Source: a bacterium
GTDB lineage: Bacteria; RBG-13-66-14; B26-G2; WVWN01
Assembly: GCA_035529855.1 (NCBI GenBank)
Contig: DATKVX010000039.1
Span: 4,244 to 68,243, forward strand
Length of the DNA: 64,000 bases
Reading direction: 5' to 3'
This document shows positions 1-62,920 of this stretch, one piece after another. Below the pieces are notes generated by a model. The model was given only the letters and a program-made list of their open reading frames with translations, made no database searches and was not told the DNA's origin. The translations under genes were made by a program, and so were the position numbers. Numbering within the stretch: position 1 is the first letter of the stretch; each line of letters begins with the position of its first letter.

Positions 1-778
1 TGTCGCGGATGGCCAACAGCGCGCGCCCGGGCCGCGACCGCCGCAAGCGGTATACGACGTACACCGCCAGCGCCAGCAAAATTAAGACCAGGAAGTAGTA
101 GCGCATGTAGCCGCCGCGAGCGGCGTCGAAGCCGAACGAGAACGCGCCTATCGTAGGGGCCTCGATGCCGCGCAGGCCCATCGGGCCGTTGGTCAGGCCG
201 ACCCAGTTGGTAAACGTCAGGCGCACGATCTCGCCGAAGCCCAGCGTCACGATGGCGAGGTAGTCGCCGGAGAGGCGTAGCGCCGGCAGGCCGCGGAGGA
301 CGCCCAGCAGCGCTCCGGCCGCCGTCGCCACCGGCAGCGCGGCCCAGAACGACCAGCCGCACTTGAGCATCAGTAGCGCCGCGGTGTACGCGCCGATGCC
401 GTAGAACGCGATGAAGCCGAGGTCGAGGACGCCGGCGAAGCCGACGATGATGTTGAGGCCCAGCGCCAGGATGGCGTAGACGCCCATGGTAACCGTGACG
501 CGGAGCCAGTATTGGTCGCGGACGACGAACGGCACGATCGCGAGCGCCACGACGAAGAACGCGATAAGCAGAACCTTCGTCCGCGCGAAGAGCAGCGAGC
601 CGACGGCGATGGCCGCCGCGACGGCGACGAGGCCGACGGGCAGGTTGAGGACCGTCAGGCCCAGCGCCACGGCCGCGCCGATCGCGAGGAATATGGCCGC
701 CGCCCGCGCCGGGTACTGCAACAGCGCGCCCACGTTGCGCTCGAAGCGCTCCAGGTCGGATGTGACTATCCCGTGCAA
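1..778 (-). CDS. livM: Branched-chain amino acid ABC transporter permease LivM, partial: the C-terminus runs off the window start. Probable TTG start at 776-778.
   Basis: The reverse-strand translation reads ...QYWLRVTVTMGVYAILALGLNIIVGFAGVLDLGFIAFYGIGAYTAALL..., a typical LivM permease core. It is polytopic. An AGGAA motif lies upstream of the TTG. Confidence 0.8.
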   Translation of the reverse strand, partial: MHGIVTSDLERFERNVGALLQYPARAAAIFLAIGAAVALGLTVLNLPVGLVAVAAAIAVGSLLFARTKVLLIAFFVVALAIVPFVVRDQYWLRVTVTMGVYAILALGLNIIVGFAGVLDLGFIAFYGIGAYTAALLMLKCGWSFWAALPVATAAGALLGVLRGLPALRLSGDYLAIVTLGFGEIVRLTFTNWVGLTNGPMGLRGIEAPTIGAFSFGFDAARGGYMRYYFLVLILLALAVYVVYRLRRSRPGRALLAIRD

Positions 779-835
779 TTTAATTCACGCCGGTTCCTAA
801 TTTTTGCGAAACCGTACGTTTGAGCGGTTAGCTGT

Positions 836-1851
836 TTAATCGTTGCTTAAATAAACGAACCCCTCAGAATTATTACGTAGCCGGCAATTATACCAACTAT
901 AATCACCATAAGGATCGTTTGCTTTAGACAACAAATCGTTTCCGTCGTCATAATAGATATATATCCTTTCACTCATCGGTACGGTAGCTAAAATATCATA
1001 ACTATTCCCCGGCCCAGCGCGGACGATTAAACCAGCGTCGTCATTTACAGTAATAAAATCGCCGCTACCACTAAAAAAATCGTAAGGACTAAAATAGAGT
1101 TCAATTCTTTCAGTTCCTGCGAACCCTATATCGTCTCCCGAAACATCCTCCCAAAACCAACGGCAACCGTCGTCCGTAAAAACGAAATCGTAAGGCCTTA
1201 CCATAGCGAGTTCAGAGATGTCCCCACCTTTACAAACCAAATAAACCCTTATCGAGTCAACCACTCCCGCCCAATACTTCACAGGCGACAAATCGTAACA
1301 AAGCCCTATTAGCGATTTAATATGCGATCGTTCCGTTCTCTCGAACGATTTCTCGAGCGTATACGAATACTCGATAACCACCGTATACTGCCCAACGTCA
1401 TCGAACCCCAAACGAAATATCGCAATTACCGGTACCGCTTCGTCCTTCTCTTCCGTAACGAAATCGATATCGCCCTTTTTTAACTCAGTTCCCCCAACTA
1501 ACACCCGAAATTTATCAAAAGCGTAAGGAGCTCGGCCGCCTATTTCGGGCCGCCCGATTTTAACCCCGGTATCGGGTATGTAAGATACTAGTAAGTCCTG
1601 ACGGGGTTTTAACGATTCGAAAAAATATTTGGACCGTACGGATACCCGATCCGGATACTCCAAAGTTATAGTTAACTCGTTACTCCGTAAAGCCACCGTA
1701 TCTATATCCGCATATTCGTACCCGTATGTCTTCCATTCCCCAGTAACGCCTAAATCGGAAGTATAGGTCCAATCGCCGAACGGCCCGATATTCGCTAAAC
1801 TTACCCCCGGTAATAAAATTAGGGCACTTAAGTATCTTAGTGTCTGAACCA
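836..1851 (-). CDS. Hypothetical secreted protein, about 338 aa from a GTG start. The gene is AT-rich and sits between livH and livM.
   Basis: GGGGAA lies upstream of the GTG. The N-terminus MVQTLRYLSALILLPGVSLA looks like a signal peptide. The protein is Tyr/Asp-rich and beta-like (YGYEYADIDT, YIYYDDGND) and matched no family I could recognise. GC is visibly much lower than in both flanks. Confidence 0.6.
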
Positions 1852-1863
1852 CCGATTCCCCTT

Positions 1864-2766
1864 TTACGTCCTCCGCGGGATCTGCTTGCCCAATATTCCC
1901 GAGGGGCGGTATATCAATACTATTATTAAAATCGCGAAGGCGATGGCGTCCATCCACAGCGACGAGATGTACGCGCCGGCGAAACCCTCCGCCAACCCCA
2001 GGACGAGGCCCCCCACGAACGCCCCCGGCATGTTCCCGATGCCGCCCAGCACCGCCGCCGTGAACGCCTTCAGGCCGGCCATATACCCCATCATCGGCCA
2101 CACCTGGTTGTAGTTCATGCCGACGAGGATGCCGGCGACCGCGGCCATCGCCGAGCCGATGGCGAACGTGGCGGATATGGTCCGGTCGACGTTGACGCCC
2201 ATAAGCTTCGCGGCCACCTGGTCCTGGGCGCAGGCCCGCATCGCCCGCCCCAACTTCGTCTTGCCGATTATCAACGTCAGGAAAACCATCATCGCCGCGG
2301 CGGTCCCCAATATCGTTAGCTGCATGTTGGAGAACGTGGCCTCGCCCAGAACCGGGACGATGAGCTGGTGCTTTACCTGGAAGAACGCGAGCGGCCTCTC
2401 GGCGTCGAGGAACGGTTGGCGGCGCGCGCCCCAGACCTTCATCGCCAGGTTCTGGAAGAAGAGCGACGCGCCGATGGCGGATATGAGCGCCACCAGCCGG
2501 GGGCTCCGGCGCAGCGGCCTGTACGCGATGTATTCCAACGTGACGCCCATTATCATCGCCGCCACGATGGCCGCCGGCGCCGCGAGCCAAATCGGATACC
2601 CCGCGAGCCTGAAAAGCGTCATCGCGACGAACGTCGCCATCATGTAAATTTCGCCGTGGGCGAAGTTGATAAGCTCCACGATGCCGTAGACCATCGTGTA
2701 GCCGACGGCGATGAGCGCGTACACCGCGCCTATCGTCAAACCGTTGATGAGCTGTTGGAGGAACAT
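1864..2766 (-). CDS. livH: Branched-chain amino acid ABC transporter permease LivH.
   Basis: The translation MFLQQLINGLTIGAVYALIAVGYTMVYGIVELINFAHGE... is a canonical LivH N-terminus. The ATG at 2764-2766 lies inside a longer ORF with a spurious upstream extension. Confidence 0.85.
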   Translation of the reverse strand: MFLQQLINGLTIGAVYALIAVGYTMVYGIVELINFAHGEIYMMATFVAMTLFRLAGYPIWLAAPAAIVAAMIMGVTLEYIAYRPLRRSPRLVALISAIGASLFFQNLAMKVWGARRQPFLDAERPLAFFQVKHQLIVPVLGEATFSNMQLTILGTAAAMMVFLTLIIGKTKLGRAMRACAQDQVAAKLMGVNVDRTISATFAIGSAMAAVAGILVGMNYNQVWPMMGYMAGLKAFTAAVLGGIGNMPGAFVGGLVLGLAEGFAGAYISSLWMDAIAFAILIIVLIYRPSGILGKQIPRRT

Positions 2767-2836
2767 CGCTAAGCGGTCGAAACCGTACGCGAATAATATC
2801 CCGAAGACGCCCGGCCCGCAAGGCCCGAACGGCGCC

Positions 2837-3010
2837 CTTAACCTATCCCGGCCAGCTTCGCGATTATAATAATCGCGACCGCGAGCGGCGTGATCGTCCG
2901 GCACATCCAGAGCCAGATTTTACCCGTCGGGAAGCCGTGGTAGGAGCCCTCCGCCGCGGCCTGTATCGCCTTCGGGCCCCAACCCCACCCCACGAAGAGC
3001 GCTATCAACA
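2837..3010 (-). CDS. Possible small membrane protein of about 55-60 aa, absent from the ORF track. The start is uncertain (TTG or GTG).
   Basis: A reverse-strand frame reads ...GTVFFLPLGGLLIALFVGWGWGPKAIQAAAEGSYHGFPTGKIWLWMCRTITPLAVAIIIIAKLAGIG* with two hydrophobic helices. It lies between the GT-C gene and livH and has no ATG. Confidence 0.3.
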
Positions 3011-3169
3011 GGCCCCCGAGCGGCAGGAAGAAGACCGTCCCCGATATCGACTTGTAGCGGAGCCCGTCGCCGCCCGGATGAAACCGAACCTCGAGCCCCA
3101 GCGTTCCCGCAAGCGCTTCGGTACTACCTTCGCCATGAGACGCTTTCTCCGTCCAGCCTTATATAATAA

Positions 3170-4750
3170 TTATCTTTTCGGAACCAACCGCCAGAAATTA
3201 CTCGGTTCGTAGCGCGGGCCCTCGTACGCGGCGACGAACTCGCGTTCGTACGACGCCAAGAGCTTCTCGGCCTCGGCGCCGGTTACGCCGTACTCCTCGC
3301 GCGCGCCGGGGGCGAGCAAGTCCGTGGAAGACGTCGCCGGCCGGGCGTCGCTGACGTAAACGGCGCGGCCCGCGGCTAATTTATCGTCTATCCGCCTCTT
3401 GAAGTCGTCCGGGTCCCGGACGCCGAAATATATGCCGGCGGTCTCGACGCCCGCGAAGTAGTCGGAATATATCCCCGGCCCGAGGCCGTCCAAACCCGAG
3501 AAGATTACCAGGTCGTCCGGGGCCGTCACGTCATCCACGAACCTCGCGAACGATAAATGCTCGTTGTACTCGGCCTTGGACTCGGGGTATATCGAACCCC
3601 AGAAGTTCCCCGCGAACAGCAGGACCGGCAGCGCGTACAGCACTACCCGGCCTAAGCGCTTCGTCGCCGCGGCGCCGGCACTCGCGTATAAAAAGAATAT
3701 AACGGCGAAGGCTTGCGGCGTCCACCGGTCCGTGCCGCCGGCGTCGCGAAACGTGAAGAAGACGGCGTACGGCAAAAAGAACGCCAACGCCAGCCACGCC
3801 TGCCGGCGCGACGCCCCTCGAGCGGAGAAGCGCGACACGGCCCCCACGAACGCCGCGAGCAACGCCGCCGCGCCCAAAATAATCAAGGCCGCCACCGCGT
3901 ACGACTGCCAGGCCCAATCGCCGGCCAGCACGTCTTTTATCCAACGCAGGCCGAAGACGTTTCGCGCCAACGCGTAAAGGTCGAGCGCGACGTTCACCAG
4001 GCGATAGGTCATGTAGTAATGCGTCCGGCCCGGCGTGCCGAAAGCCCAGCGCCAAAGTTCGCCCGGGCCGCGGTAACCCAAAACGCCGAAGCCTACGACG
4101 ACGTATGCGACGACCCCCGGCGATAAATACGTCAAAACCAAAGCCGGCAAACGCCGCAAATATTTGTCCGGCCTCGAGATGAAGTAGGCCGCGATTAAGA
4201 ACAGAAAGAGCAGGCCGTTAGTTATATGGGTTAAAACGGCGGCGCCGGCGACCGCCGCGCACAACGCCCAGCGGCGGAAATCGCGCGCTTCCGACGCCCA
4301 TTGCGCCGAAAGGAAGGTCGCCATCGCGGCGACGGTACTGACGATTACGCACTCCGCGTTGCACGAGTACGCCCAATACCCGTACGAAAACGCGAGCGCG
4401 AAACTCCCCGCCAAAGACATAGGCCGCGGCGCGCCGGCCTTCCTCAATACCATATAACATAAAACGAAACCGACGCCCCCCACCAAAGCGTCCAGAATTT
4501 GCATAGCGCCGAGCAGCCGGCCGCCGTAACCGAACAACCGCAAGGCCGCTTGGAACGCCAACGCCAAGGGATTATACGAGAGGTGATGCTGGTGCCATAC
4601 GGCGGGGGCCCCGAATTCCGCAATCGCCAATTCCCACCGCATGCCGTCCGGGAAATAATAGGCGGACCGGAATACAAGGTAAATCGCCGCCACGGCTAAG
4701 GCCGCGGCGGCCGCCGTTACACCCCAAAGATATTGCCGCCGCTCGCGCAA
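3170..4750 (-). CDS. GT-C superfamily polyprenyl-phosphate-sugar-dependent glycosyltransferase (ArnT/PMT-like), paralog 1. Putative TTG start.
   Basis: The N-terminal half has more than 10 predicted TM helices and the C-terminal half is soluble. The architecture matches paralogs at 9318, 15021 and 25539. The gene sits inside the liv operon between livK and livH. Confidence 0.6.
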   Translation of the reverse strand: MRERRQYLWGVTAAAAALAVAAIYLVFRSAYYFPDGMRWELAIAEFGAPAVWHQHHLSYNPLALAFQAALRLFGYGGRLLGAMQILDALVGGVGFVLCYMVLRKAGAPRPMSLAGSFALAFSYGYWAYSCNAECVIVSTVAAMATFLSAQWASEARDFRRWALCAAVAGAAVLTHITNGLLFLFLIAAYFISRPDKYLRRLPALVLTYLSPGVVAYVVVGFGVLGYRGPGELWRWAFGTPGRTHYYMTYRLVNVALDLYALARNVFGLRWIKDVLAGDWAWQSYAVAALIILGAAALLAAFVGAVSRFSARGASRRQAWLALAFFLPYAVFFTFRDAGGTDRWTPQAFAVIFFLYASAGAAATKRLGRVVLYALPVLLFAGNFWGSIYPESKAEYNEHLSFARFVDDVTAPDDLVIFSGLDGLGPGIYSDYFAGVETAGIYFGVRDPDDFKRRIDDKLAAGRAVYVSDARPATSSTDLLAPGAREEYGVTGAEAEKLLASYEREFVAAYEGPRYEPSNFWRLVPKR

Positions 4751-4789
4751 GACAGACGTCCCGGGCGCGGCGCGACCGAGCGCGGCGCC

Positions 4790-5998
4790 CTAACTCCCTT
4801 CAGGCGGGCTCGGCTCCGCGGGCGCCGACGCTTTCAAAGCTTCCTTGGCCCGCTCGAGGTCCTCGGCCTGTTTTCGGAAGGGGACGAATTCGCCGTCCTT
4901 CACGACCGCGACGACGAGCGGCTTCATACAATCGCCGTCTTCGTTGAAGTACGTAAGGCCCGCCACGCCTTTGTAACCCTTCTCCGCCGAATCCATCGCC
5001 GCCACGTAGTCGCGAATAGCCTTGCGGTCCGGCCCCGCCTTCTCGATGGCCTCCGCCGCTATCCCCAACGCGTCGTACGTCAGCGCCGCCCACGCGTCGG
5101 GCTCGATACCGTAGCGCTGCTTAAAAGACGTGACGAAGTTCCGCGTCTTCTCTTCCCCCACGGTGGGCAAGAACGGGCAGGTAACGATGACGCCCTCCGA
5201 GGCCTTGCCGGCGTTCGTCACCAGGTCCGCCGAGAGTAGGCCGTCGCCGCCGATGAACGGCGTCTCCATGCCGAGGTTGCGGGCCTGGGTGAGTATCATC
5301 GCCGCGTTGGCGTACAGGCCGGAGACGAAGATGATGTCCGGGTTCTTCGCCATAATTTGCGTAAGCTGCGGCGTGTACTCCTGGGTGTCGCGGACGTAGG
5401 CTTCCTCGCGCACTATCTCCAGGCCGATTTCTTCGGCGCGAGCCGCGAAGGCGTCCCTGAGTCCCCGCCCGTAATCGTCGTTGTCGAAGAAGACGGCGAC
5501 GCGGTTATACCCCAGGACGTATTTAATATATTCGGCGATAAACCGGCCTTGGAAATCGTCGCGGTAGACGTTCCGAAAGGTCCAGTCGCCGCCGGCGCAC
5601 ACCGTAACGTTGGTCGAGCCGGGCGAAAGCTGGAGCACGCCCATCGAGTTATACACTTCTTTGCCCGCGAGCGAACAACTGGAGTTGAAGTGGCCGAGTA
5701 CGGCCAAAACGTTCGGGTTAGAACCCAATTTCTGCGCCGTGTTCGCCGCCTCTTTCGGGTCGCCCTTATCGTCCTGGAACTCGAGCTCGAGGGGGATGCC
5801 GTTGATGCCCCCGGCTTCGTTTATCTCGTCGGCCCGCATCTCGGCCGCCATCCGCAACATTTCGCCGTACTGGGCGCCGTCGCCCGTAAACGGGCCGGTC
5901 ACGCCCACCAGGTAGGTCTTTTCGGCCTTCCTGCCGCAACCGCCGAATACGACTAAAATGAGCGCTGCAACGACGGCAGCCTTGAAAACCCTGCTCAT
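4790..5998 (-). CDS. livK: Branched-chain amino acid ABC transporter substrate-binding lipoprotein (LivK/LivJ family).
   Basis: The signal/lipobox is MSRVFKAAVVAALILVVFGGCG. The body reads YLVGVTGPFTGDGAQYGEM...NVLAVLGHFNSS..., a type-I periplasmic binding fold. The strong RBS GGAGGAGGAA precedes the ATG at 5996-5998. Confidence 0.85.
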   Translation of the reverse strand: MSRVFKAAVVAALILVVFGGCGRKAEKTYLVGVTGPFTGDGAQYGEMLRMAAEMRADEINEAGGINGIPLELEFQDDKGDPKEAANTAQKLGSNPNVLAVLGHFNSSCSLAGKEVYNSMGVLQLSPGSTNVTVCAGGDWTFRNVYRDDFQGRFIAEYIKYVLGYNRVAVFFDNDDYGRGLRDAFAARAEEIGLEIVREEAYVRDTQEYTPQLTQIMAKNPDIIFVSGLYANAAMILTQARNLGMETPFIGGDGLLSADLVTNAGKASEGVIVTCPFLPTVGEEKTRNFVTSFKQRYGIEPDAWAALTYDALGIAAEAIEKAGPDRKAIRDYVAAMDSAEKGYKGVAGLTYFNEDGDCMKPLVVAVVKDGEFVPFRKQAEDLERAKEALKASAPAEPSPPEGS

Positions 5999-6056
5999 TT
6001 TCCTCCTCCTACGCCCAAGCCCGGGGCGCGGCGCGGCCCAAACGAAACCGCTCAAC

Positions 6057-7748
6057 CTACCGGTTAATCCACCGCCCGGAGGCGTCGGCCTCTTCGGCGA
6101 GCCGCGAACTTATTCGCGCCATGTTATCCACGGCGTCGCGCACCGCCTTAACCTGGCCCAAGGCTTCGGCCGCGGCCTCGTTTATATTCTCGACCGCGGT
6201 AGTGACTTGCTCCAGACCCAAACTCTGTTGTCGCGCCGACGCCGCGATTTGTTTAGACGTCCGGCCCATCTCGTCGACTAACGGGACGATTTCCTCGATC
6301 AAACTCTTCGTCTTCGCGGCGCCCTCGCGTAAGATACTCGACTGCTCGGCGCTCCCCCGCGCCGACGCCACCGTCTTCACCGTCCCGTCCCTTATGTCGT
6401 GCAGGACTTTTCGTATTTCCTCGGTGCCCTCTTTCGACGACCCGGCTAAGTTCTTCACCTCCCGCGCCACCGCGGCGAAACCTCGGCCGAACTCGCCCGC
6501 TTTCGCCGCCTCGATGGAGGCGTTCAACGCCAAGACCGTCGACTGTTCCGCGAGGTCGTTGACCAGAGCCACGATGTCGTCCATCCGGCGCGCGCTCTCG
6601 TTTAAGGTCACCGCGAGTTTGGCGGTGGTATGGGCCTCCTCGGCCAACGCCCCTATTCTCTCCGTGTTCCCCGATATCTGGTCCCGGGCGGTCTTTATCA
6701 ATCCCGCCGACGAGTCGACGCGCCCCGATATTTCCTCCGCCCGCGCCGCGGTCTGCTTAACCGTCCCCGCCAGCTCCTTCATCGTAACCGAAGTCTGGGA
6801 AATAGCCGAGGCCTGCTCCGCCGCTATGCTCGCTTGTTCCGTCAAACTCTCGCGGGCGCGGCCGGCCCCGCCGGCGAGTTCTTCCGCTGCGCGCCGTGTT
6901 TTTTCGTCAAACGCGCGGGCATCGTCGAAGAACCGTCGGTACGCGGCCGTCAACTCCTCGACCTCGCCGCCTACGTAATACGTAATCGGCGCCGCCGTAG
7001 CGGTATTCCTGAGCGGCACCGTTACGTGACCGGAAGCGACGTACGCCGCCGCCGCGGATACGGCTACCAACACCGCCGCCGCCGCCCACCGGCCCAAACC
7101 CCACGCGGCCCCGCCGCCCAAACCGGGGCCGACGGCCGCTAACGCGATTAAAGCCGCCGCGCCCGCGCCACCCGCGATAAGGTACCGAACACCGAGCGAT
7201 ACACCCCGCCGCGGCGCGAACCTAATCCTCTTCGCCGTTAGGAACGCGAAAATCGGCGCCAAATAACGCTCCGCGGCCGCGTACGAAACGAGGCCGTACA
7301 TAAGGGCGGCCCCGACGCCGATACACCAAATCGCCGCTACCCCGGCGTAACCGGCGGGCCCTGCTGCCGCGGCTCCGCAAATGACGTACGCCACGACGCC
7401 GCTCACGAAAGCGACGAGGGCCGCTAAAAACGGGAACGCCCTGATCCGCTTGGCGGCCGGCGGTTCGAAATCATTTTGGGTAGCGGCCGGCGTCAAGAAC
7501 GAAACCGCCCGCGCCAGCGACGCCGCCATAGCCGCAACGACGACGACCGACGCCAGGCCCAACGGCGCGACTACGTACAGATGGGCGTATACCAGGCGGC
7601 GTTGCGCCGCGGCTTCGAGGCCGGCGGTCAGGAATAAGGCCGCCGCCGCCGGCAATACGTAAAAAGCGACGAACAATAACGCTTGCGTAAACGCCACTCG
7701 GGGGACGTCGACGCCGGTTTCGTCTCGCGCAGCCACGTTAGCTACCAC
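6057..7748 (-). CDS. Methyl-accepting chemotaxis protein with a multi-TM N-terminal domain. GTG start.
   Basis: The C-terminus carries the MCP signalling signature ...LALNASIEAAKAGEFGRGFAAVAREVKNLA... The N-terminal 250 aa or so are polytopic. Confidence 0.8.
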   Translation of the reverse strand: MVANVAARDETGVDVPRVAFTQALLFVAFYVLPAAAALFLTAGLEAAAQRRLVYAHLYVVAPLGLASVVVVAAMAASLARAVSFLTPAATQNDFEPPAAKRIRAFPFLAALVAFVSGVVAYVICGAAAAGPAGYAGVAAIWCIGVGAALMYGLVSYAAAERYLAPIFAFLTAKRIRFAPRRGVSLGVRYLIAGGAGAAALIALAAVGPGLGGGAAWGLGRWAAAAVLVAVSAAAAYVASGHVTVPLRNTATAAPITYYVGGEVEELTAAYRRFFDDARAFDEKTRRAAEELAGGAGRARESLTEQASIAAEQASAISQTSVTMKELAGTVKQTAARAEEISGRVDSSAGLIKTARDQISGNTERIGALAEEAHTTAKLAVTLNESARRMDDIVALVNDLAEQSTVLALNASIEAAKAGEFGRGFAAVAREVKNLAGSSKEGTEEIRKVLHDIRDGTVKTVASARGSAEQSSILREGAAKTKSLIEEIVPLVDEMGRTSKQIAASARQQSLGLEQVTTAVENINEAAAEALGQVKAVRDAVDNMARISSRLAEEADASGRWINR

Positions 7749-7772
7749 CTCGGGCTTTTACTCCGGACGTAT

Positions 7773-8612
7773 CTATTCGGCCGTAACCTCCTCGGCCTCG
7801 AGCCATTCCGCCGGCAACGCGTAACCTTCCCGGACGAGTTTCATCGTCGTCGCGACGTGTTCTCCCAAATCGCGCTGCTTGCCGCCGATTATAAAAGACC
7901 TCTCCCGCGTGCCGGCGACATCGAGACGGGCGTACGCCGGCAGGCCGTCGGGAGCCGGGACGGCCGCACCCGCGCCCTCGTACGAAGACCGCCCCGTCAT
8001 GGTGCTGAACTTCGTATCCTGGCTGAGTTTTTGGTTAAATACGACCGAAAATTCGACTTGTGCGCCCTCTTCCCCCTCGAAAGCGGGCAACGGCTGCGCC
8101 TCGGCCGCTTCCATAGATACGACGCTCGTACCGTAGGAACGCGCCACCGCCGCCCGGGCGCCGTCGCGCCACAAGTCGGCCTTCGGGCCGCCGGGCGGAA
8201 AGAGCATCAACGCCAATAAGTTATAACTGATTTCCTCGCTGTCCTTGACGAACGCCGGCGCGCGCTTCACGCCGCCCTCGGCCAACGTCCAGGGCGCGAA
8301 CTCGAGCCACCGCCCGGGTAAAAACCCGGCCACCTTCTCGACGTCCGGTATCACCGCGTCGCCCGCGAGCGTTTGTTGGTTCGCGGTCACGAACGTCAAC
8401 CGGTACACGCCGCCGTCGAGCTCCTCCAGCGAGAAGGTCGCCGACGTCTCGGTGCGGCTGAGCGACGGTATGCCGAACGCGTTCGCTACTTCCGCGGACG
8501 CGCCGTCGATCTCGTGCGTCGCGACGACGCTAACGGCGTAATTAACCGGCACCGCGGAAGCCGCTGCGGCCGCCGCCACCACCGCCGCCGCCAAATAATA
8601 GGCCCTATACAT
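7773..8612 (-). CDS. Hypothetical secreted protein.
   Basis: The signal peptide is MYRAYYLAAAVVAAAAAASAVPV. I recognised no family. Confidence 0.5.
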   Translation of the reverse strand: MYRAYYLAAAVVAAAAAASAVPVNYAVSVVATHEIDGASAEVANAFGIPSLSRTETSATFSLEELDGGVYRLTFVTANQQTLAGDAVIPDVEKVAGFLPGRWLEFAPWTLAEGGVKRAPAFVKDSEEISYNLLALMLFPPGGPKADLWRDGARAAVARSYGTSVVSMEAAEAQPLPAFEGEEGAQVEFSVVFNQKLSQDTKFSTMTGRSSYEGAGAAVPAPDGLPAYARLDVAGTRERSFIIGGKQRDLGEHVATTMKLVREGYALPAEWLEAEEVTAE

Positions 8613-8694
8613 ATTCTACCCTAATGCCGTTAATACTTGGACTTTTGTAACATCTTTAACGTCCTTTATCAACCATTTTCGGCCGCGGCCGGCG

Positions 8695-8723
8695 TTGACA
8701 CCGCGGCCTTCGTGTGTTAATTT
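8695..8723 (+). promoter_or_regulatory. Sigma70-like promoter: TTGACA, a 17-bp spacer, then TAATTT. It sits upstream of the gamma-CA gene.
   Basis: ttgaca(8695-8700)-ccgcggccttcgtgtgt-taattt(8718-8723). RBS GAGGAG precedes the ATG at 8751. Confidence 0.5.
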
Positions 8724-8750
8724 GCTCGTCGAAGCACACGAGGAGAATAT

Positions 8751-9272
8751 ATGATCGAGGGTTATTTGGAATACGAACCCCGGCTGGGCCGGGATGTCTA
8801 CGTCGCGCCCACGGCGCTGGTGCTGGGGCGCGTTACGCTGGGCGAACGCGCTTCCGTTTGGCCGGGCGCGGTCCTGCGCGGCGACATCAACGAGATAATC
8901 GTCGGCGAGTACACCAACATCCAGGACCTGTGTGTGGGCCACCTGGAGGACGACTTGCCGCTCGTCGTGGGCGCGTACGTGACGGTAGGCCACGGCGCCA
9001 TACTGCACGCCTGCGAGGTGGGCGATAATTGCTTAATCGGCATGGGCGCCATCGTGCTGAACGGCGCCAGGGTGGGCGACGGCGCCATCGTAGGCGCGGG
9101 CTCGCTGGTGCCGCCGGGCAAAGAGGTCGCGGCCGGCGTCCTCGCCCTCGGCTCGCCCGCCAAAGTGGTGAGGAAGCTCTCGGACGACGAAATAGGCCAC
9201 AACCGCTACTGGGCCGAAAAGTACGCCAAGCTCGCCGCGACCTTCTTGCGGGACCGGAAGGACAACGCGTAG
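8751..9272 (+). CDS. Gamma-class carbonic anhydrase / hexapeptide-repeat protein (YrdA/PaaY/CaiE family).
   Basis: RLGRDVYVAPTALVLGRVTLGERASVWPGAVLRGD...VGHGAILHAC... shows left-handed beta-helix hexapeptide repeats with His ligands. Confidence 0.8.
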   Translation: MIEGYLEYEPRLGRDVYVAPTALVLGRVTLGERASVWPGAVLRGDINEIIVGEYTNIQDLCVGHLEDDLPLVVGAYVTVGHGAILHACEVGDNCLIGMGAIVLNGARVGDGAIVGAGSLVPPGKEVAAGVLALGSPAKVVRKLSDDEIGHNRYWAEKYAKLAATFLRDRKDNA

Positions 9273-9317
9273 CCGCCGGCCGGCCGGCGGCCCTGCCGCC
9301 CGCGCCGGGAGGTTTTA

Positions 9318-10970
9318 TTGGACAAACATATTAGAATATTGCTGCTGATTATATTGGCGTCGGCATTGGGGCTCGTCACGTTGGGCCGCTACGATTTGCG
9401 ACCCTGGGACGAGCCTTTTTACGCGCTCCGCGCCCGGGCCGCAGCGGAAGACGACGCCTGGCTCGACCAGAACGACTACTGCCCCAACCGCATGGCGAAC
9501 GCGTGCTACCCGCCGCTGTTCGTGTGGCTCGCCGGCGCGACGATGAAAGTGCTCGGGCCCAACGAGTTCGCCGCGCGTTTGTGGGCCGCGCTATTGGGCC
9601 TCGCCGCGATACCGATAGCGTACCTCTTGGGTACGCGCCTCTACGGCCGAACCGCCGGCCTGTACGCCGCCGGCGCGCTGGCCGCGCTGCCCGGCTTCGT
9701 GCGCGTGAGCCGCATGGCGCAATTCGACGCCCCGGTGGCGTTTTTCGTTCTGCTGACGTTTTGGCTGTGGGTGGAATACTACCGAAACCGTAGATGGTTA
9801 ACGGCCGTCCTGTGCGGCTTCGCCCTCGGCCTGGCCTTAATGACCAAAATCGCGGTGCCGTTCGTCTTCGTCGCCGCGGCCGCGGCCGCCGTCCTCACCC
9901 CGGGCGGCGGGCCGAACAGGGCCCGGGATGTCGGCGCCCTGGCGCTGGTCGTCGGCGTCGGGCTGGCCGTCGCGGCGCCCTGGCATATCTACATGTACGC
10001 CAAACACGGCGACTATTTCCTCGAGCATTACGCCGGTTACATCCTGCTATACCGCGGCGACGGCATCGCGGCGCAAATAAAACCCGCGACGTCGCCGCTC
10101 CGTTTTCTATTTTATTACAATTCCACCGTAATCTTTTTGAAGGGCGTCGCGCCCTTCTTCTTCGCCGGCCTGGTCGCGCTGCTGGCGTCGAAGGATACCT
10201 GGCGGAACCGGCCCGACCGCCTCGCCGTGGTCCTGTGGGTCGTCTTGTCGCTGGCGGTCCTGATGGTAGTTCGGTTCAAACGGGAGATATACCTCGCGGC
10301 CATATTGGCGCCGATGTGCGTTATAGCCGGCGGTTGGCTCGCGAAATTCGGCCGGGCGCAGCTAGGGAAAGTCGGCGCGGCCGTCCTGGCCGGGGCGGCG
10401 CTCTTCGCCGGCGGCTGGGCGGACTCCTCCCGGGTGCGGGGACCGTTCGTCGCCTGGATTACCCCCGAGTTCGCGCGCGGGAACGGCGGTTGGATGCTCA
10501 CGGCGGCCGCCGCCGCGGCCGCGACCGCGCTGGCCTTCGCCTTCTACTTCTGGTACCGGCGGGCGCCGAAGGCCGCCGCCGCAACCCTCCTGGTCGCGAT
10601 ATACGTCCAGCTCGCGACGGGGGCCGTAGGCCAACTCGTGTACGGCCGGCGGGACTGGCAGCCGCTCAAGGGCCGGCTGGAGGACGCGCGCTACGCCGGC
10701 GTGGTGATGGTAACCGCCGACGAGTTGCCGACGCACCTCTTCTACTTCCACCGCCTTATGCCGGGCTTCGGCGGCGCCGAGCGGTTGATGTTGAACCCGA
10801 CGTGGACGCGGGTGGACCCGGCGTACTTGGAGGAGCATTACCGGGAGGGCTATCTAATTCTTCTGGATAAGGAGACGAGGCCCGAGCTGGCGGCGCGGCT
10901 GGCGGCCGGCCTCGAGCGAAGCGGCGGCTCCCGCGTGGAGTCGGGGCGCTATATCCTATTCATTAAATAG
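9318..10970 (+). CDS. GT-C glycosyltransferase (ArnT/PMT-like, GT39/GT83-type), paralog 2. TTG start with a GGGAGG RBS.
   Basis: The N-terminal motif is RPWDEPFYALRA, the 'DE' acidic motif of ArnT/PMT. It has about 12 TM helices plus a C-terminal soluble domain. Confidence 0.7.
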   Translation: MDKHIRILLLIILASALGLVTLGRYDLRPWDEPFYALRARAAAEDDAWLDQNDYCPNRMANACYPPLFVWLAGATMKVLGPNEFAARLWAALLGLAAIPIAYLLGTRLYGRTAGLYAAGALAALPGFVRVSRMAQFDAPVAFFVLLTFWLWVEYYRNRRWLTAVLCGFALGLALMTKIAVPFVFVAAAAAAVLTPGGGPNRARDVGALALVVGVGLAVAAPWHIYMYAKHGDYFLEHYAGYILLYRGDGIAAQIKPATSPLRFLFYYNSTVIFLKGVAPFFFAGLVALLASKDTWRNRPDRLAVVLWVVLSLAVLMVVRFKREIYLAAILAPMCVIAGGWLAKFGRAQLGKVGAAVLAGAALFAGGWADSSRVRGPFVAWITPEFARGNGGWMLTAAAAAAATALAFAFYFWYRRAPKAAAATLLVAIYVQLATGAVGQLVYGRRDWQPLKGRLEDARYAGVVMVTADELPTHLFYFHRLMPGFGGAERLMLNPTWTRVDPAYLEEHYREGYLILLDKETRPELAARLAAGLERSGGSRVESGRYILFIK

Positions 10971-59787: not shown

Positions 59788-59820
59788 ATAAGCCGGGCGT
59801 GAGGCCCGGGGTTTTTTTAT
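59788..59820 (+). terminator. Rho-independent terminator after the MFS pair. It also marks the left edge of the AT-rich island.
   Basis: AAAAAATAA-GCCGGGC-GTGAG-GCCCGGG-GTTTTTTTAT. Confidence 0.7.
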
Positions 59821-59853
59821 TAAGGTTTGCGCTTGTAGGAAAAACCGGACGGA

Positions 59854-60798
59854 TTACATCTTTTCTGAAATCAAATAAATAATTGCGTTTAGCCACATAA
59901 TATTCAATTTTCTATTAGTGGTATTAGAGGCGTTATGGTTAAAATAGGAATAGAATAGATTCCAATAATCCTTATCCCATTTTAGTAACCAAGCAGCATC
60001 GTACGTTCCGTGACCTAAATTTTCTTCATCGGTTAAATGATAAAACTTGAAGAGTACTTCGGGTTCGCCTCTAATAAAAGAATTAGGTATATCTTCGTGG
60101 GATTTAATAATCCGCGAGCCGTACGAACCTTCTTCTCCGGGTAATTCTACTCTACCCACCTTTTTACAAATCGGGTGATTGTAATCGAAAGGGTTGACCT
60201 CAACCGTTACGTAAGGTTTATCGAAATGACCTACTTCTCCAAAAAAGTGTAAATCGTGGGTACATACGGCGCTACCGCCCCCGCTTAAATAAGTCTTTAA
60301 TGCGTTTTCTATATCCACCCTTCTATCGTAAATTCCGTAACCAGTGGGGCAATGCTCGTCCGTATAATGTCGATTGTCACCAATTCCAAAGATGCAATCA
60401 TATTCGTTATTTATCTGGCCGACCGCATTTAAGAATTCGACCCGGAAAAACGGGCTAAAAAAATCCCGGAAATGATCTATGTAACTATTATGGCAAATCA
60501 CCAATAGCCTGGGCTTGAATTTCTTATTAACTTTTTTAGGATAGGGTAAAGGCAAGAGCCTTAAGACTTTTTTTTTGTCGTTGTCGGGTGCGGAAATAGT
60601 CGATATAAAGGTTAGAATAACCGCTAAAACCGGTCCTATTATAGTCGCCAACGCTACTATTTTATCTCCCTCAAAATCGAAAACCGCCAAAATTCCTATA
60701 GAAATTACTAAGATAAAAAGGCTTATATAGGTAACGAAAAGAACCCGTCCATACCTTCGATTTAGGTATTTAGTAACCCAATAAAACCCTATTTCCAT
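59854..60798 (-). CDS. Hypothetical 2-TM membrane protein from the AT-rich island; possible PLC-like phosphodiesterase (weak motif-level hint).
   Basis: The N-terminal helices are VLFVTYISLFILVISIGILAV and IVALATIIGPVLAVILTFI. The downstream domain carries LLVICHNSYIDHF, resembling the PI-PLC X-box 'sHNsY'. A second His lies about 50 aa later (NRHYTDEH). RBS GGGAG. AT-rich. Confidence 0.45.
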   Translation of the reverse strand: MEIGFYWVTKYLNRRYGRVLFVTYISLFILVISIGILAVFDFEGDKIVALATIIGPVLAVILTFISTISAPDNDKKKVLRLLPLPYPKKVNKKFKPRLLVICHNSYIDHFRDFFSPFFRVEFLNAVGQINNEYDCIFGIGDNRHYTDEHCPTGYGIYDRRVDIENALKTYLSGGGSAVCTHDLHFFGEVGHFDKPYVTVEVNPFDYNHPICKKVGRVELPGEEGSYGSRIIKSHEDIPNSFIRGEPEVLFKFYHLTDEENLGHGTYDAAWLLKWDKDYWNLFYSYFNHNASNTTNRKLNIMWLNAIIYLISEKM

Positions 60799-60860
60799 CT
60801 CATTCGCTCCCGCGGTCGTAGGTCGCAGCGGTCTATGTGTTGGATTGTTTTTTCAATTTA

Positions 60861-61469
60861 TTAATAATTATCGTCTATGAAATTTCCGAGGGCCGCCAAT
60901 ATCTCCTCAATAGAAAGGTTGTTTGGAGCTTGGCGTGCCGCCCACCTGCGCCCAGGATGGACGGTATCCCATAACGAACGTTGCTGCTTGCGCCTACCGC
61001 CCCCCGGGTCGTGGAGGCCAAAGCCATCCAAGTATAAATTCCATACGGGCCTAGTCGAAGTTATGACGAGCGTTTCACCCAAAGGTATCCATATATCGTC
61101 CGCAATTAAGTACCTACAACGAAAATCGGATAAATCCAAATTTTCTGCTTGGTTTATAGATTCGCCGTGCTCTCGCAAACGGTTATATAATGCGTTACCC
61201 GGCGGTTCGTCTAAACGCAGTATACCCCTCCGCGATCCCGGCGGTATTGCTTTCCCAACGTATATAGGTAGTCCCCATCTATCATCGGCGTTCCTATCAG
61301 CAATGCGCGAATAATAACCCAAAGGGCCTATATAATAAATGGCGTAAATACCCGCGCCTTCGAAAGAACTCCCGGGGGGTAAATTAGTAACGCCCCTTTC
61401 GAAAAGGGCTTCCTTTAAGCTTTTCCCAAGATTAGCTTTATCCAAAGGGTTATAAGGTTTCTCGTTCAT
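60861..61469 (-). CDS. GIY-YIG type II restriction endonuclease, Eco29kI/NgoMIII-family-like.
   Basis: GAGIYAIYYIGP...LPIYVGKAIPPG form GIY...YVG motifs. I also recall (from memory, with no database access) that NLDLSDFRCRY and WDTVHPGRRWA resemble conserved blocks in Eco29kI-family enzymes, which cut CCGCGG. The start overlaps the MTase stop by 4 bp. Confidence 0.55.
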   Translation of the reverse strand: MNEKPYNPLDKANLGKSLKEALFERGVTNLPPGSSFEGAGIYAIYYIGPLGYYSRIADRNADDRWGLPIYVGKAIPPGSRRGILRLDEPPGNALYNRLREHGESINQAENLDLSDFRCRYLIADDIWIPLGETLVITSTRPVWNLYLDGFGLHDPGGGRRKQQRSLWDTVHPGRRWAARQAPNNLSIEEILAALGNFIDDNY

Positions 61470-62848
61470 AAACCCGGTTTTTCCACTACGACCGCGGCGT
61501 CGTAAAGGCTACGTTTTTCGCCGTTACCGTACCTTACCGTTGAGTCCGTAATACTCGAACCGACACGTTTATCTCTAATAATGTACGTACCGACGAACTT
61601 TAACCCGTGTTCGCGAGCGATTTCCCCGAATAATCGGTCTACTTCAATTTCAATACCTTGGATTACGGAATTACCTATAACTATTACTGCACTCCCGCCG
61701 GTTTTCAATACCCTACTTACGATCTCCCAGAAAACGTAGGTATCGTTAAAATACGAAGCCACGTAGTTCGCCCACCCCGAGCCGCCGTAAACGCCGGCTT
61801 CCTTACGGGTTTCCTTTAATTCCGATAGAATCGCCCGTAATTCCTCATACTCGAACGTCAAAGGAACGTCTTCCAGGCCCCGGACTTCTTGCCAGTATTT
61901 ACCGAAATTCCCGGTTTCCAGCCCCTTTTGTTCATCAGGTTTCGAAACGAAAGACAACCAATATAATTGAGGTCTCGTATTTCTTACGTAATGGTAGTTA
62001 TTCAAATAAGGCGGGGACGTTATTAATAAATCTACAGAATTATCCTCGACCGTATGGTGGTCGGAAAGGAAATTAGCATGCCTTATCCTAGCATCCCCTA
62101 AACTTTCTGGCCTTTTTATCAGCCCCTTTACGGATATTATATCATCCAACATCTCTCGACATTTCCCGGACAATACCCGCGCAAAATCAGCGTCCTTCAT
62201 TGCCGGTTTCCCGGCACTCCTGCGCGTCCCCAAACTAGGCTCGTAGGAATAATTCGAAACGCCGACCATCACCGAGCCGAAGGCGATGCGGAATAAGTCC
62301 TTTATAAGACCGTCATCTATTCTATCGATATAATCTAACGCGTGTAGTACTTGTTTTTCTATACGGGGGCTAAAAAACGGTTCTTTAGTTTTCAAAGGGG
62401 GTTTTTCGATATTGGGGGCCGGCGTACTACGCCATTTAGAGGAAAGGTCCTCTAATTCTAATACCCTAGATCTAAGCGCCTCGATATTTACGGAAAGGCA
62501 TCTCGCTTTTGTACTAGCCGCTAATGAAGCGTAAGGGTTAATATCGAAACCTACGGCGTCGTAGCCCCTCACGACCGCTTGAAATATCGTCGTTCCGACG
62601 CCGGCAAACGGGTCTAAAATAACGGGCGTTTCCGTTTCAACGTCCGATTGAAGGTACAAATCGAAAACGCTATCGACGAAGCCTGCCGAAAACCCGGCGA
62701 TCCAAGGGACCCAGCGGTGTATAGGGGACTTTTTATTTTCAAAAAAAGCCGGGTCTTTTAAACCGTTATTCGTTTTCGGACTAACCCTATTCGAGAAAAG
62801 AACTCGCTGATAACTATCGCGGATTTTTTGTTGGTCTAATCGCGGCAT
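61466..62848 (-). CDS. DNA amino-methyltransferase (N4-C or N6-A, PF01555-like) with motif I (DPFAGVGTT) placed before motif IV (TSPPY).
   Basis: DPFAGVGTT at about aa 80 and LLITSPPYLNNYHY at about aa 270, counting from M18. A GAGGAG RBS precedes the ATG at 62846-62848; the ORF-track start is an upstream TTG. AT-rich. Confidence 0.65.
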   Translation of the reverse strand: MPRLDQQKIRDSYQRVLFSNRVSPKTNNGLKDPAFFENKKSPIHRWVPWIAGFSAGFVDSVFDLYLQSDVETETPVILDPFAGVGTTIFQAVVRGYDAVGFDINPYASLAASTKARCLSVNIEALRSRVLELEDLSSKWRSTPAPNIEKPPLKTKEPFFSPRIEKQVLHALDYIDRIDDGLIKDLFRIAFGSVMVGVSNYSYEPSLGTRRSAGKPAMKDADFARVLSGKCREMLDDIISVKGLIKRPESLGDARIRHANFLSDHHTVEDNSVDLLITSPPYLNNYHYVRNTRPQLYWLSFVSKPDEQKGLETGNFGKYWQEVRGLEDVPLTFEYEELRAILSELKETRKEAGVYGGSGWANYVASYFNDTYVFWEIVSRVLKTGGSAVIVIGNSVIQGIEIEVDRLFGEIAREHGLKFVGTYIIRDKRVGSSITDSTVRYGNGEKRSLYDAAVVVEKPGL

Positions 62849-62920
62849 GTTCTTTTTACTCCTCGTTGTGATAATATAATTATGAGCTGGAAACGTCAAC
62901 TTAAAATATTCCTAAAAAAC

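What the first reader, a model, noticed from the sequence alone, without database searches (positions are those of the whole stretch)
836..1851. AT-rich secreted-protein gene inserted between livH and livM
The permease genes livH and livM are normally adjacent. Here a 338-aa protein gene is wedged between them, with 12-bp and 57-bp gaps on the same strand. It has a signal peptide, unusual Tyr/Asp-rich beta-like repeats and a markedly lower GC than the rest. It looks like a foreign gene that has landed inside an ABC-transporter operon and is probably co-transcribed with it. It matched no family I recognise.
Basis: seen in the sequence. Interest (0 to 1): 0.55.

Follow-up and report, generated by a model that had tools for sequence, protein, structure and literature searches.

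The report
Swappable secreted-protein gene inside liv operon
A real, foreign-looking gene for a secreted, probably cell-wall-binding protein sits between two transporter genes, at a spot where related uncultured bacteria carry very different versions of it, other cargo, or nothing, so it is a gene-swapping hotspot rather than a one-off accident or a transporter part.

Summary
A 338-aa gene lies on the minus strand at 836-1852, 11 nt after livH and 57 nt before livM. Its GC3 is 0.44, against 0.89 and 0.93 in those neighbours.

It is a real gene from a very small family: signal peptide, DUF4424-like beta-sandwich, C-terminal SH3b domain. I found no internal repeats.

It is not a lone accident. 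In this clade of MAGs (labelled Ca. Zixiibacteriota, some Coatesbacteria), the livH-livM junction is a variable hotspot. One relative has the empty site, with livH stop and livM start 1 nt apart. Others carry a RAYT transposase with REP hairpins, a PDC-S11-like defence candidate, an unrelated SH3b protein or a GT2.

At least nine other family sequences, in seven other populations, sit at this same site. Pairwise identity is 16-48% across the twelve compared sequences, three not at this site. livH stays 78-94% identical to the window's. Most are AT-rich; one has host-like GC3 (0.81).

The best reading is a hypervariable, horizontally exchanged envelope-protein cassette. It is probably read through from the liv operon and uses the ribosome-binding site inside the livH terminus. 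Its biochemical function is unknown. Moderately interesting; a new variant of a known kind.

The parts
836..1852 (-). FAM gene. It encodes a 338-aa secreted protein and is AT-rich (GC 0.44, GC3 0.44).
   Evidence: It has eleven homologues at 16-36% identity. The AlphaFold2 model has pTM 0.79.
1793..1852 (-). Predicted Sec signal peptide, residues 1-20 (VVQTLRYLSALILLPGVSLA|N).
   Evidence: Hydropathy and alignment with the homologues' N-termini. This is heuristic; no dedicated signal-peptide predictor was available.
1088..1720 (-). N-terminal beta-sandwich domain, about residues 45-255, with an invariant YW.G motif (YWAG in 9 of 10 aligned members). The fold is DUF4424-like, also resembling the N-terminal domain of M1 aminopeptidases.
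851..1033 (-). C-terminal bacterial SH3 (SH3b) domain, residues 274-334.
1853..1863 (-). 11-nt spacer between the livH stop and the FAM start. It contains a Shine-Dalgarno-like AAGGGG.
   Evidence: Read from the sequence.
1865..1883 (-). The last 19 nt of livH, AGATCCCGCGGAGGACGTA. It holds the GGAGGA Shine-Dalgarno that directly precedes livM in the empty-site relative L016. An exact second copy follows the first cassette in L095 and L096.
1864..2766 (-). livH-like permease, 300 aa, the conserved left flank of the hotspot.
   Evidence: Pfam BPD_transp_2 at E 6e-46. It is 78-94% nt identical to the livH of other core-clade loci.
779..835 (-). 57-nt spacer between the FAM stop and the livM start. 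No terminator, REP hairpin or significant structure was found in it.
   Evidence: (fold z-score -1.2).
1..778 (-). livM-like permease, the conserved right flank. It starts at a TTG and runs off the window. Its first 4 codons differ from those of relatives.

Best explanation
The gene is one allele of a small, hyperdivergent family, here called FAM. The protein has a Sec signal peptide, a DUF4424-like beta-sandwich and usually a C-terminal SH3b domain.

It occupies a clade-specific variable hotspot that lies exactly between the livH stop codon and the livM start codon.

The likely mechanism has four inferred steps:
1. Cassettes are exchanged or replaced horizontally, most simply by recombination in the conserved livH and livM flanks. 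This produces presence, absence and allele turnover that is much faster than divergence of the flanks.
2. The promoterless cassette is transcribed by read-through from the liv operon. It is translated using the Shine-Dalgarno sequence embedded in the last codons of livH. In the empty-site genome that same sequence directly precedes the livM start.
3. The protein is exported to the periplasm. There the SH3b domain tethers it to peptidoglycan and the beta-sandwich binds a partner or ligand. No invariant catalytic-type residues are present.
4. The extreme allelic divergence, and the other cargo seen at the site (a defence candidate, a transposase), suggest an accessory envelope function under diversifying pressure rather than a role in amino-acid transport.
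For: Shown:
- GC3 is 0.44, against 0.89 and 0.93 in the flanking genes.
- The empty site exists. L016 reads livH TAG-C-GTG livM, with AGGAGGA inside the livH end.
- Alternative cargo occupies the same site. There is a Y1_Tnp/RAYT with REP hairpins in L010, L012, L021 and L090. There is a PDC-S11-like gene in L011 (E 9e-14), an SH3b/PD40-like protein in L017 and L018, and a GT2 in L020 and L087.
- FAM alleles occupy the same site in L008 (two copies), L009, L013, L090, L091, L095/L096 (two copies) and L097.
- Pairwise identity across the twelve compared family sequences (nine at this site, three not) is 16-48%. The livH of these loci is 78-94% nt identical to the window's.
- One allele, P0004, has host-like GC3 of 0.81, which indicates long residence. 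The others are at 0.44-0.57.
- Outside the clade, 60 of 61 genomes have livM directly after livH. Inside it, 7 of 8 scorable loci carry 0.6-1.5 kb of cargo.
- No terminator lies between the genes.
- The fold and domains are supported.
- dN/dS is 0.15 for the only closely related pair, so the family is under purifying selection.
- L095 and L096 carry an exact 19-nt copy of the livH terminus after the first cassette, which points to recombination at the livH end.
Against: - No recombination breakpoints are proven. Flank identity dips only modestly near the junction, and the livM N-terminus may simply be less constrained.
- No low-GC donor carrying liv flanks was found. The nearest homologues, P0002 and P0003, lie outside liv operons.
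- Persistent AT-richness across most alleles is not explained by flank recombination within a high-GC clade.
- Export, peptidoglycan binding, co-transcription and diversifying selection are all inferred.
- The window copy has no target-site duplication, inverted repeats or REP hairpins that would reveal how it arrived.
- The strain-level SNP comparison is uninformative: 0 mismatches in FAM, but also 0 in the PMT2-like gene.
Confidence: 0.6

Rival explanations
1. One-off horizontal acquisition. A single foreign gene from a low-GC donor landed by chance between livH and livM in this lineage only.
For: GC3 is 0.44 against about 0.9 in the flanks. The closest relatives, L010 and L011, lack it. The nearest homologue, P0002 (36-40% identity depending on the alignment), sits in a GC 0.46 genome and is not in a liv operon.
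Against: At least nine other family sequences sit at the identical site in seven other populations of the clade. These include L091 with the same livH-FAM-livM-SecDF order, and one allele with host-like GC. Chance cannot place one rare family, about 12 known sequences among 1.8 billion representative proteins, at one junction repeatedly.
Confidence: 0.1
2. A lineage-specific accessory component of the transporter. FAM is an ancestral periplasmic partner of this Liv-type system, for example one that tethers it to the wall or captures substrate. It has been retained at its operon position and evolves fast.
For: The position is conserved across the clade and the gene is tightly coupled to livH (11-nt gap, shared Shine-Dalgarno). 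Allele P0004 has host composition. An unrelated SH3b-containing secreted protein sits at the same position in the Coatesbacteria-labelled relatives L017 and L018.
Against: It is absent from L010, L012, L016 and L021, where livH and livM are intact. It is replaced by a transposase or a defence-candidate gene in sister genomes. Family-wide pairwise identity is only 16-48%. Most alleles are AT-rich. Homologues P0002 and P0003/L094 have no liv neighbours. It shows no similarity to substrate-binding proteins.
Confidence: 0.12
3. A site-specific cassette platform. The livH terminal 19-mer, possibly together with REP hairpins and RAYT, acts as an attachment site. Promoterless cassettes are inserted there and stacked, in an integron-like way, and the liv promoter expresses them.
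For: An exact 19-nt duplicate of the livH end brackets the first cassette in L095 and L096. Arrays of two or more cassettes occur in L008 and L095. REP hairpins lie between cargo units and next to RAYT genes in L010, L012, L013, L021 and L090. Insertions always fall precisely between the stop and start codons.
Against: The duplication is seen in one population only. The window, L091 and L009 have no REP hairpin and no second 19-mer. No recombinase appears among the called genes of the 17-kb contig L001. RAYTs are not known to move cargo genes (my own knowledge). There are no viral-contig matches to the 19-mer or to the family.
Confidence: 0.12
4. Artefact. The arrangement is a chimeric assembly, or the ORF is a spurious reading frame in an AT-rich spacer.
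For: Nothing specific supports this. Metagenome-derived sequence always carries some risk of it.
Against: The junctions are identical in three independent assemblies. An NCBI MAG, L091, has the same architecture with a divergent allele. The family alignment is conserved and the fold is confidently predicted. dN/dS is 0.15 in the family.
Confidence: 0.01

Closest known systems
lpg2210 of Legionella pneumophila (PDB 4g2a; Pfam DUF4424 + YARHG; Coggill et al. 2013, PMC3848476)
   Different: No sequence-level match to DUF4424 in any of the 10 members. About 9-11% identity. The C-terminal domain here is an all-beta SH3b, not the helical YARHG.
Bacterial SH3 (SH3b, Pfam PF08239) cell-wall-binding domains of lysostaphin, phage endolysins and NlpC/P60 hydrolases
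   Same: The C-terminal 60 residues match SH3_3 by sequence, borderline in the window but clear in the family. They also match solved SH3b domains by fold.
   Different: No catalytic (amidase, peptidase or muramidase) domain is attached. The partner domain is a non-enzymatic-looking beta-sandwich. One natural allele, P0010, lacks the SH3b altogether.
Chromosomal HGT hotspots and 'replacement' flexible genomic islands between conserved core genes, for example O-antigen or capsule loci (named from my own knowledge, not tested against a database)
   Same: The flanks are conserved. Content differs between close relatives. The cargo is AT-rich relative to the genome. The products are envelope or defence-type and the alleles are hyperdivergent.
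   Different: The hotspot is a single-gene-sized slot inside an operon, between two permease subunit genes of one ABC transporter. It takes over the translational coupling signal of the downstream subunit.
Integron gene-cassette arrays
   Same: Promoterless ORFs, sometimes stacked in the same orientation, presumably expressed from an upstream promoter. Hairpin-forming elements lie between some units.
   Different: No IntI integrase and no attI or attC were seen. The hairpins are 20-nt REP-type elements associated with a Y1 (RAYT) transposase. The window copy has no hairpin at all.
REPtrons: RAYT (IS200-like Y1 transposase) genes flanked by REP hairpins
   Same: These are present at the very same junction in L010, L012, L021 and L090 (Pfam Y1_Tnp E 7e-9 to 3.5e-11; flanking hairpins such as CACCGGCA-NNNN-TGCCGGTG).
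   Different: They are absent from the window. There is no REP-like match in 64 kb and no RAYT next to the gene. They are a co-occupant of the hotspot, not part of this gene.

Membership tests
SH3b (Pfam SH3_3, PF08239) | Sequence match to the family profile at or above its gathering score. | tested here: inconclusive
   The window protein scores 26.5 bits against a gathering score of 27 (E 7.4e-6). Eight of ten family members match SH3_3, best E 2.4e-8. At family level the feature is met; for this sequence it is borderline.
SH3b (Pfam SH3_3, PF08239) | A small beta-barrel SH3-like fold. | tested here: met
SH3b (Pfam SH3_3, PF08239) | Binding to peptidoglycan or the cell wall. | not testable with these tools
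   This needs a pull-down with purified sacculi.
DUF4424 (Pfam PF14415; lpg2210) | Sequence match to the family profile. | tested here: not met
   No DUF4424 hit at E <= 1 for any of the 10 members. A profile search of PDB sequences does not retrieve 4g2a.
DUF4424 (Pfam PF14415; lpg2210) | A multi-stranded beta-sandwich fold like the N-terminal domain of M1 aminopeptidases and LTA4 hydrolase. | tested here: met
Branched-chain amino acid ABC transporter (LivJ/K-HMGF) component | Homology to a known subunit: substrate-binding protein (Peripla_BP_6), permease (BPD_transp_2) or ATPase. | tested here: not met
   There are no such Pfam or NCBIfam hits. The operon's substrate-binding protein is a separate gene at 4790-5998.
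Branched-chain amino acid ABC transporter (LivJ/K-HMGF) component | Presence wherever the transporter is present in the clade. | tested here: not met
   It is absent from L010, L012, L016 and L021, which have intact livH and livM.
HGT hotspot / replacement genomic island | A conserved pair of flanking core genes with differing content between them in related genomes, including an empty state. | tested here: met
HGT hotspot / replacement genomic island | Cargo with atypical composition. | tested here: met
   FAM alleles have GC3 of 0.44-0.57, the PDC-S11-like gene 0.40 and the RAYT 0.57-0.62, against 0.89-0.93 in the flanks. The exception is P0004 at 0.81.
Integron cassette | An IntI tyrosine recombinase with attI, and attC sites bounding the cassettes. 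| tested here: not met
   No recombinase appears among the Pfam-annotated genes of the 17-kb contig L001. No hairpins flank the window copy. No attC covariance search was run.
IS200/IS605-type or REP/RAYT-mobilised element | A Y1 HUH transposase and/or subterminal hairpins at the element ends. | tested here: not met
   No REP-like hairpin occurs in the window. RAYT and REPs are present only in relatives.

The most novel reading that the evidence does not exclude
The 3' terminus of livH, a conserved 19-mer containing the Shine-Dalgarno sequence and the stop codon, may serve as a dedicated attachment site. Promoterless accessory cassettes would be captured and stacked there, perhaps with REP/RAYT involvement. 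Cassettes seen so far include FAM alleles and a PDC-S11-like defence gene. A housekeeping transporter operon would then act as an integron-like expression platform. On this reading FAM itself is a new envelope-level variation or defence protein.
Probability: 0.1. Interest if true: 0.75.

Novelty: new variant of a known kind. Interest (0 to 1): 0.45.

Why it matters
If this holds, it documents a gene-exchange hotspot of single-gene size inside an operon, between two subunit genes of one ABC transporter.

The incoming gene takes over the ribosome-binding site that directly precedes the downstream permease gene in the empty-site relative. That would be a compact example of accessory genes parasitising housekeeping expression signals, possibly at a cost to the host transporter.

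It also defines a previously undescribed family of secreted proteins: a DUF4424-like beta-sandwich plus SH3b. The alleles are hyperdivergent in uncultured Zixibacteria-like bacteria. That pattern is usually associated with phage or competitor pressure on the cell envelope.

The function of the family, and of its structural relative lpg2210, is still unknown.

Tried and rejected
- **Word-indexed protein search.** It found only the protein itself, and with the family alignment only 2 proteins. The full HMMER scan was needed to find the family.
- **Sequence libraries.** PDB sequence searches with the single protein and with the profile gave nothing, or only sub-threshold SH3b hits. NCBIfam, PHROGs and PADLOC gave nothing for FAM.
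- **Viral origin.** No relative was found in IMG/VR. BFVD fold matches were only generic beta-sandwich and SH3 hits. The livH 19-mer is absent from viral contigs.
- **Marks of transposition around the window copy.** I found no target-site duplication, terminal inverted repeats or REP hairpins. The 57-nt spacer does not fold better than shuffles.
- **'Insert identical while flanks differ'.** L001 against L002 first looked like evidence of a recent sweep. I rejected it because the 1.6-kb PMT2-like gene also has 0 mismatches and L092 has 1 mismatch in FAM.
- **AT-rich tract at the livH 3' end.** I considered it part of the insert. I rejected that because similar AT-rich codons occur in relatives with other cargo, and divergence begins only at the stop codon.
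- **Dips in flank identity near the junction.** These are too weak to prove recombination tracts.
- **Homology between FAM and other SH3b proteins.** I compared FAM with the SH3b/PD40-like protein of L018 and with the SH3b neighbour of P0002. Only the SH3b domain is shared.
- **Internal protein repeats.** None found.
- **RNA features.** No Rfam families or tRNAs in the window.
- **afdb50 fold library.** It was unavailable.

Full report
**1. The observation**

The feature is real. On the minus strand an ORF runs from a GTG at 1852-1850 to a TAA at 838-836.

It lies 11 nt downstream of a 300-aa livH-like permease at 1864-2766 (Pfam BPD_transp_2, E 6e-46). It lies 57 nt upstream of a livM-like permease that starts at a TTG at 778 and runs off the window.

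GC falls to 0.42-0.47 between about 750 and 1950, against 0.60-0.70 around it. At third codon positions the contrast is stark: 0.44 for the gene, 0.89 for livH, 0.93 for livM and 0.77-0.82 for other operon genes.

The same junctions appear in three independent JGI metagenome contigs, L001, L002 and L092. Window 1-10000 is identical to L001. An assembly artefact is therefore very unlikely.

The protein is rich in Asp (33) and Tyr (26). Its N-terminus looks like a Sec signal peptide: R6, a hydrophobic core at residues 7-20, and SLA|N. I found no internal repeats. The self-alignment score is 32, against 33 +/- 5 for shuffles.

**2. What the protein is**

Pfam reports only a borderline C-terminal SH3_3 domain at residues 274-334 (26.5 bits, gathering score 27). 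NCBIfam, PHROGs, PADLOC and PDB sequence searches add nothing.

The word-indexed search found only the protein itself. A full HMMER scan of 1.84 billion representative proteins found a very small family. There are nine near-full-length relatives at E <= 1e-20, at 31-40% identity by that search, plus a more distant one, P0015.

They share:
- a signal peptide;
- a domain of about 210 residues with invariant aromatic, Gly and Pro positions, including a YW.G motif (YWAG in 9 of 10 aligned members);
- usually the SH3b domain.

No invariant residues of catalytic type are present.

lpg2210 is itself a beta-sandwich followed by a small C-terminal domain, YARHG. Its authors suggested that YARHG binds a moiety close to peptidoglycan (PMC3848476). 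The architecture is therefore analogous. By sequence, however, the family is not DUF4424.

The only closely related pair in the family, P0003 and L094, has dN/dS of 0.15. The family therefore encodes a functional protein.

**3. The locus in relatives**

*Host clade.* A scan of GTDB species genomes with livH places the window in a clade of MAGs. They are labelled Candidatus Zixiibacteriota, and deeper ones Candidatus Coatesbacteria.

*Core-clade synteny.* The order is conserved in the core clade:
1. hexapeptide-repeat (Hexapep) protein
2. 279-aa protein
3. MCP
4. substrate-binding protein
5. PMT_2-like glycosyltransferase
6. an NSS transporter (present in some genomes only)
7. livH
8. the variable slot
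9. livM
10. SecDF

*The slot is variable.*

| Locus | Content between livH and livM |
|---|---|
| L016 | Empty. livH TAG, one base, then the livM GTG. The AGGAGGA Shine-Dalgarno lies inside the last livH codons. |
| L010, L012, L021 | A 156-175-aa IS200-like Y1 transposase (RAYT) flanked by 20-nt REP hairpins. |
| L011 | A 348-aa gene with GC 0.42 that matches the PADLOC defence candidate PDC-S11 (E 9e-14). |
| L017, L018 | A 485-aa secreted SH3b/PD40-like protein of host composition. |
| L020, L087 | A GT2 glycosyltransferase plus a small ORF. |

*Baseline.* Outside the clade, livM follows livH directly in 60 of 61 genomes. Inside it, 7 of 8 scorable loci hold 0.6-1.5 kb of cargo.

*Boundaries.* Nucleotide alignments show that homology is lost exactly at the livH stop codon and resumes around livM codon 5.

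**4. The family at this site**

Family members sit directly after livH in seven other populations.

| Locus | Arrangement | GC3 of the FAM gene |
|---|---|---|
| L091 (NCBI MAG) | livH-FAM-livM-SecDF | 0.47 |
| L009 | livH-FAM | 0.52 |
| L090 | livH-REP-RAYT-REP-FAM-livM | 0.48 |
| L013 | livH-REP-FAM (fragment) | not measured |
| L008 | livH-FAM-FAM-REP, then a third signal-peptide ORF | 0.46 and 0.81 |
| L095/L096 | livH-FAM (no SH3b), 19-nt livH-end copy, REP, FAM | 0.53 and 0.54 |
| L097 | livH-FAM | 0.57 |

Pairwise identity across the twelve compared family sequences (nine at this site, three not) is 16-48%. The livH genes of these loci are 78-94% nt identical to the window's.

The genomes with the closest livH to the window are L010 (94%) and L011 (93%). 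They carry RAYT and the PDC-S11-like gene instead.

Three family members are not next to liv genes:
- P0002, in a genome of GC 0.46, beside another SH3b protein;
- P0003 and L094, in a low-GC island of an otherwise GC 0.63 contig.

In a rough neighbour-joining tree these three nest among the liv-site alleles.

**5. Interpretation**

The gene is compositionally foreign, inserted relative to an ancestral adjacent livH-livM, and probably co-transcribed.

A single chance landing does not hold. A family this rare cannot reach the same junction repeatedly by accident.

- the gene is dispensable in close relatives;
- unrelated cargo can replace it;
- its alleles are hyperdivergent and mostly AT-rich;
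- its nearest homologues have no liv context.

The best-supported account is a clade-specific exchange hotspot. It holds a hypervariable accessory gene for an exported envelope protein that probably binds peptidoglycan.

*Expression is inferred.* No terminator-like site lies between livH, FAM and livM, and no convincing promoter does either. The cargo start sits where livM starts in the empty-site genome. It would use the GGAGGA in the livH terminus together with AAGGGG. livM is left with a TTG start and a poorly spaced Shine-Dalgarno-like sequence. The insertion may therefore carry a cost for the transporter.

*Exchange mechanism is inferred.* Recombination in the conserved flanks is the simplest route. 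The exact 19-nt copy of the livH terminus behind the first cassette in L095 and L096 shows that recombination at the livH end has happened at least once.

*What remains unexplained:*
- the persistent AT-richness of most alleles in GC3 of about 0.9 genomes;
- the lack of any insertion scar in the window copy;
- the biochemical role of the protein.

**6. Known comparators and novelty**

Functionally the locus behaves like the HGT hotspots, or replacement islands, described between core genes. That comparison rests on my own knowledge. The defining features tested here were all met: conserved flanks, an empty state, variable cargo and atypical composition.

It resembles an integron array only superficially. 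The ORFs are promoterless, stacked and separated in places by hairpins. However, none of the Pfam-annotated genes on contig L001 is a recombinase, and no hairpin flanks the window copy.

The protein is closest in fold and architecture to lpg2210 (DUF4424 plus a wall-proximal binding domain). It fails the sequence test for DUF4424 and carries SH3b instead of YARHG.

I rate it a new variant of a known kind and moderately interesting. The most novel reading still allowed is that the livH terminus is a true attachment site of a cassette platform. I give that about 10%.

Noticed in passing
window 59800-62900: A second low-GC island, GC 0.34-0.52 against 0.66-0.72 in its flanks. It encodes an Eco29kI-type restriction-modification system on the minus strand. 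The endonuclease is 202 aa (RE_Eco29kI, 60861-61469, E 2e-60). The methylase is 477 aa (N6_N4 DNA methylase, 61466-62899). A 314-aa ORF at 59854-60798, with a hydrophobic N-terminal region, has no family match.
   Followed up: partly
window 2838-3050 (minus strand): A 3' remnant, about 70 codons, of a sodium:neurotransmitter-symporter-like gene. The gene is intact (471 aa) between the PMT_2-like gene and livH in L012, and by ORF length also in L014. The window lineage has therefore lost about 1.2 kb here.
   Followed up: partly
window 3170-4750 (minus strand); L020 6912-7595; L087 7291-7983: A 526-aa PMT_2/TMEM260-like (GT-C) glycosyltransferase lies inside the operon, between the substrate-binding protein and livH, throughout the core clade. 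Deeper relatives carry a GT2 glycosyltransferase at the livH-livM slot. This hints at envelope or protein glycosylation genes interleaved with the transporter genes.
   Followed up: no
L011 6913-7959: In a genome whose livH is 93% nt identical to the window's, the same slot holds a 348-aa gene with GC 0.42. It matches the PADLOC candidate anti-phage system PDC-S11 at E 9e-14.
   Followed up: partly
L095 1509-1527 and 2360-2378 (also L096 740 and 1591): An exact 19-nt direct repeat of the livH terminus (AGATCCCGCGGAGGACGTA) brackets the first cassette, P0010, a natural FAM variant without SH3b. A REP hairpin and a second FAM paralogue follow it.
   Followed up: partly
L010 6911-7455; L012 6912-7663; L021 6917-7559; L090 686-1210: RAYT (Y1_Tnp) genes at the livH-livM slot are flanked by 20-nt REP hairpins, for example CACCGGCA-NNNN-TGCCGGTG and CACAGACA-TTCC-TGTCTGTG. 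No such hairpin occurs anywhere in the 64-kb window.
   Followed up: partly
L008 4833-7304: At least three consecutive signal-peptide ORFs follow livH. They are an AT-rich FAM (GC3 0.46), a FAM of host composition (GC3 0.81), and, after a REP-like hairpin, the start of a third at 7163. The slot can therefore grow into a small array.
   Followed up: partly
L001 9447-13224 (beyond the window start): No livG or livF ATPase genes follow livM. SecD/SecF genes follow instead, so the transporter's ATPases must be encoded elsewhere.
   Followed up: no
L001 vs L002, livM region (L001 9504-10217): Strain-level SNPs between two samples from the same site are concentrated in livM: 15 in 897 nt, against 0-4 per gene elsewhere. 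This could be a recombination tract next to the hotspot.
   Followed up: no
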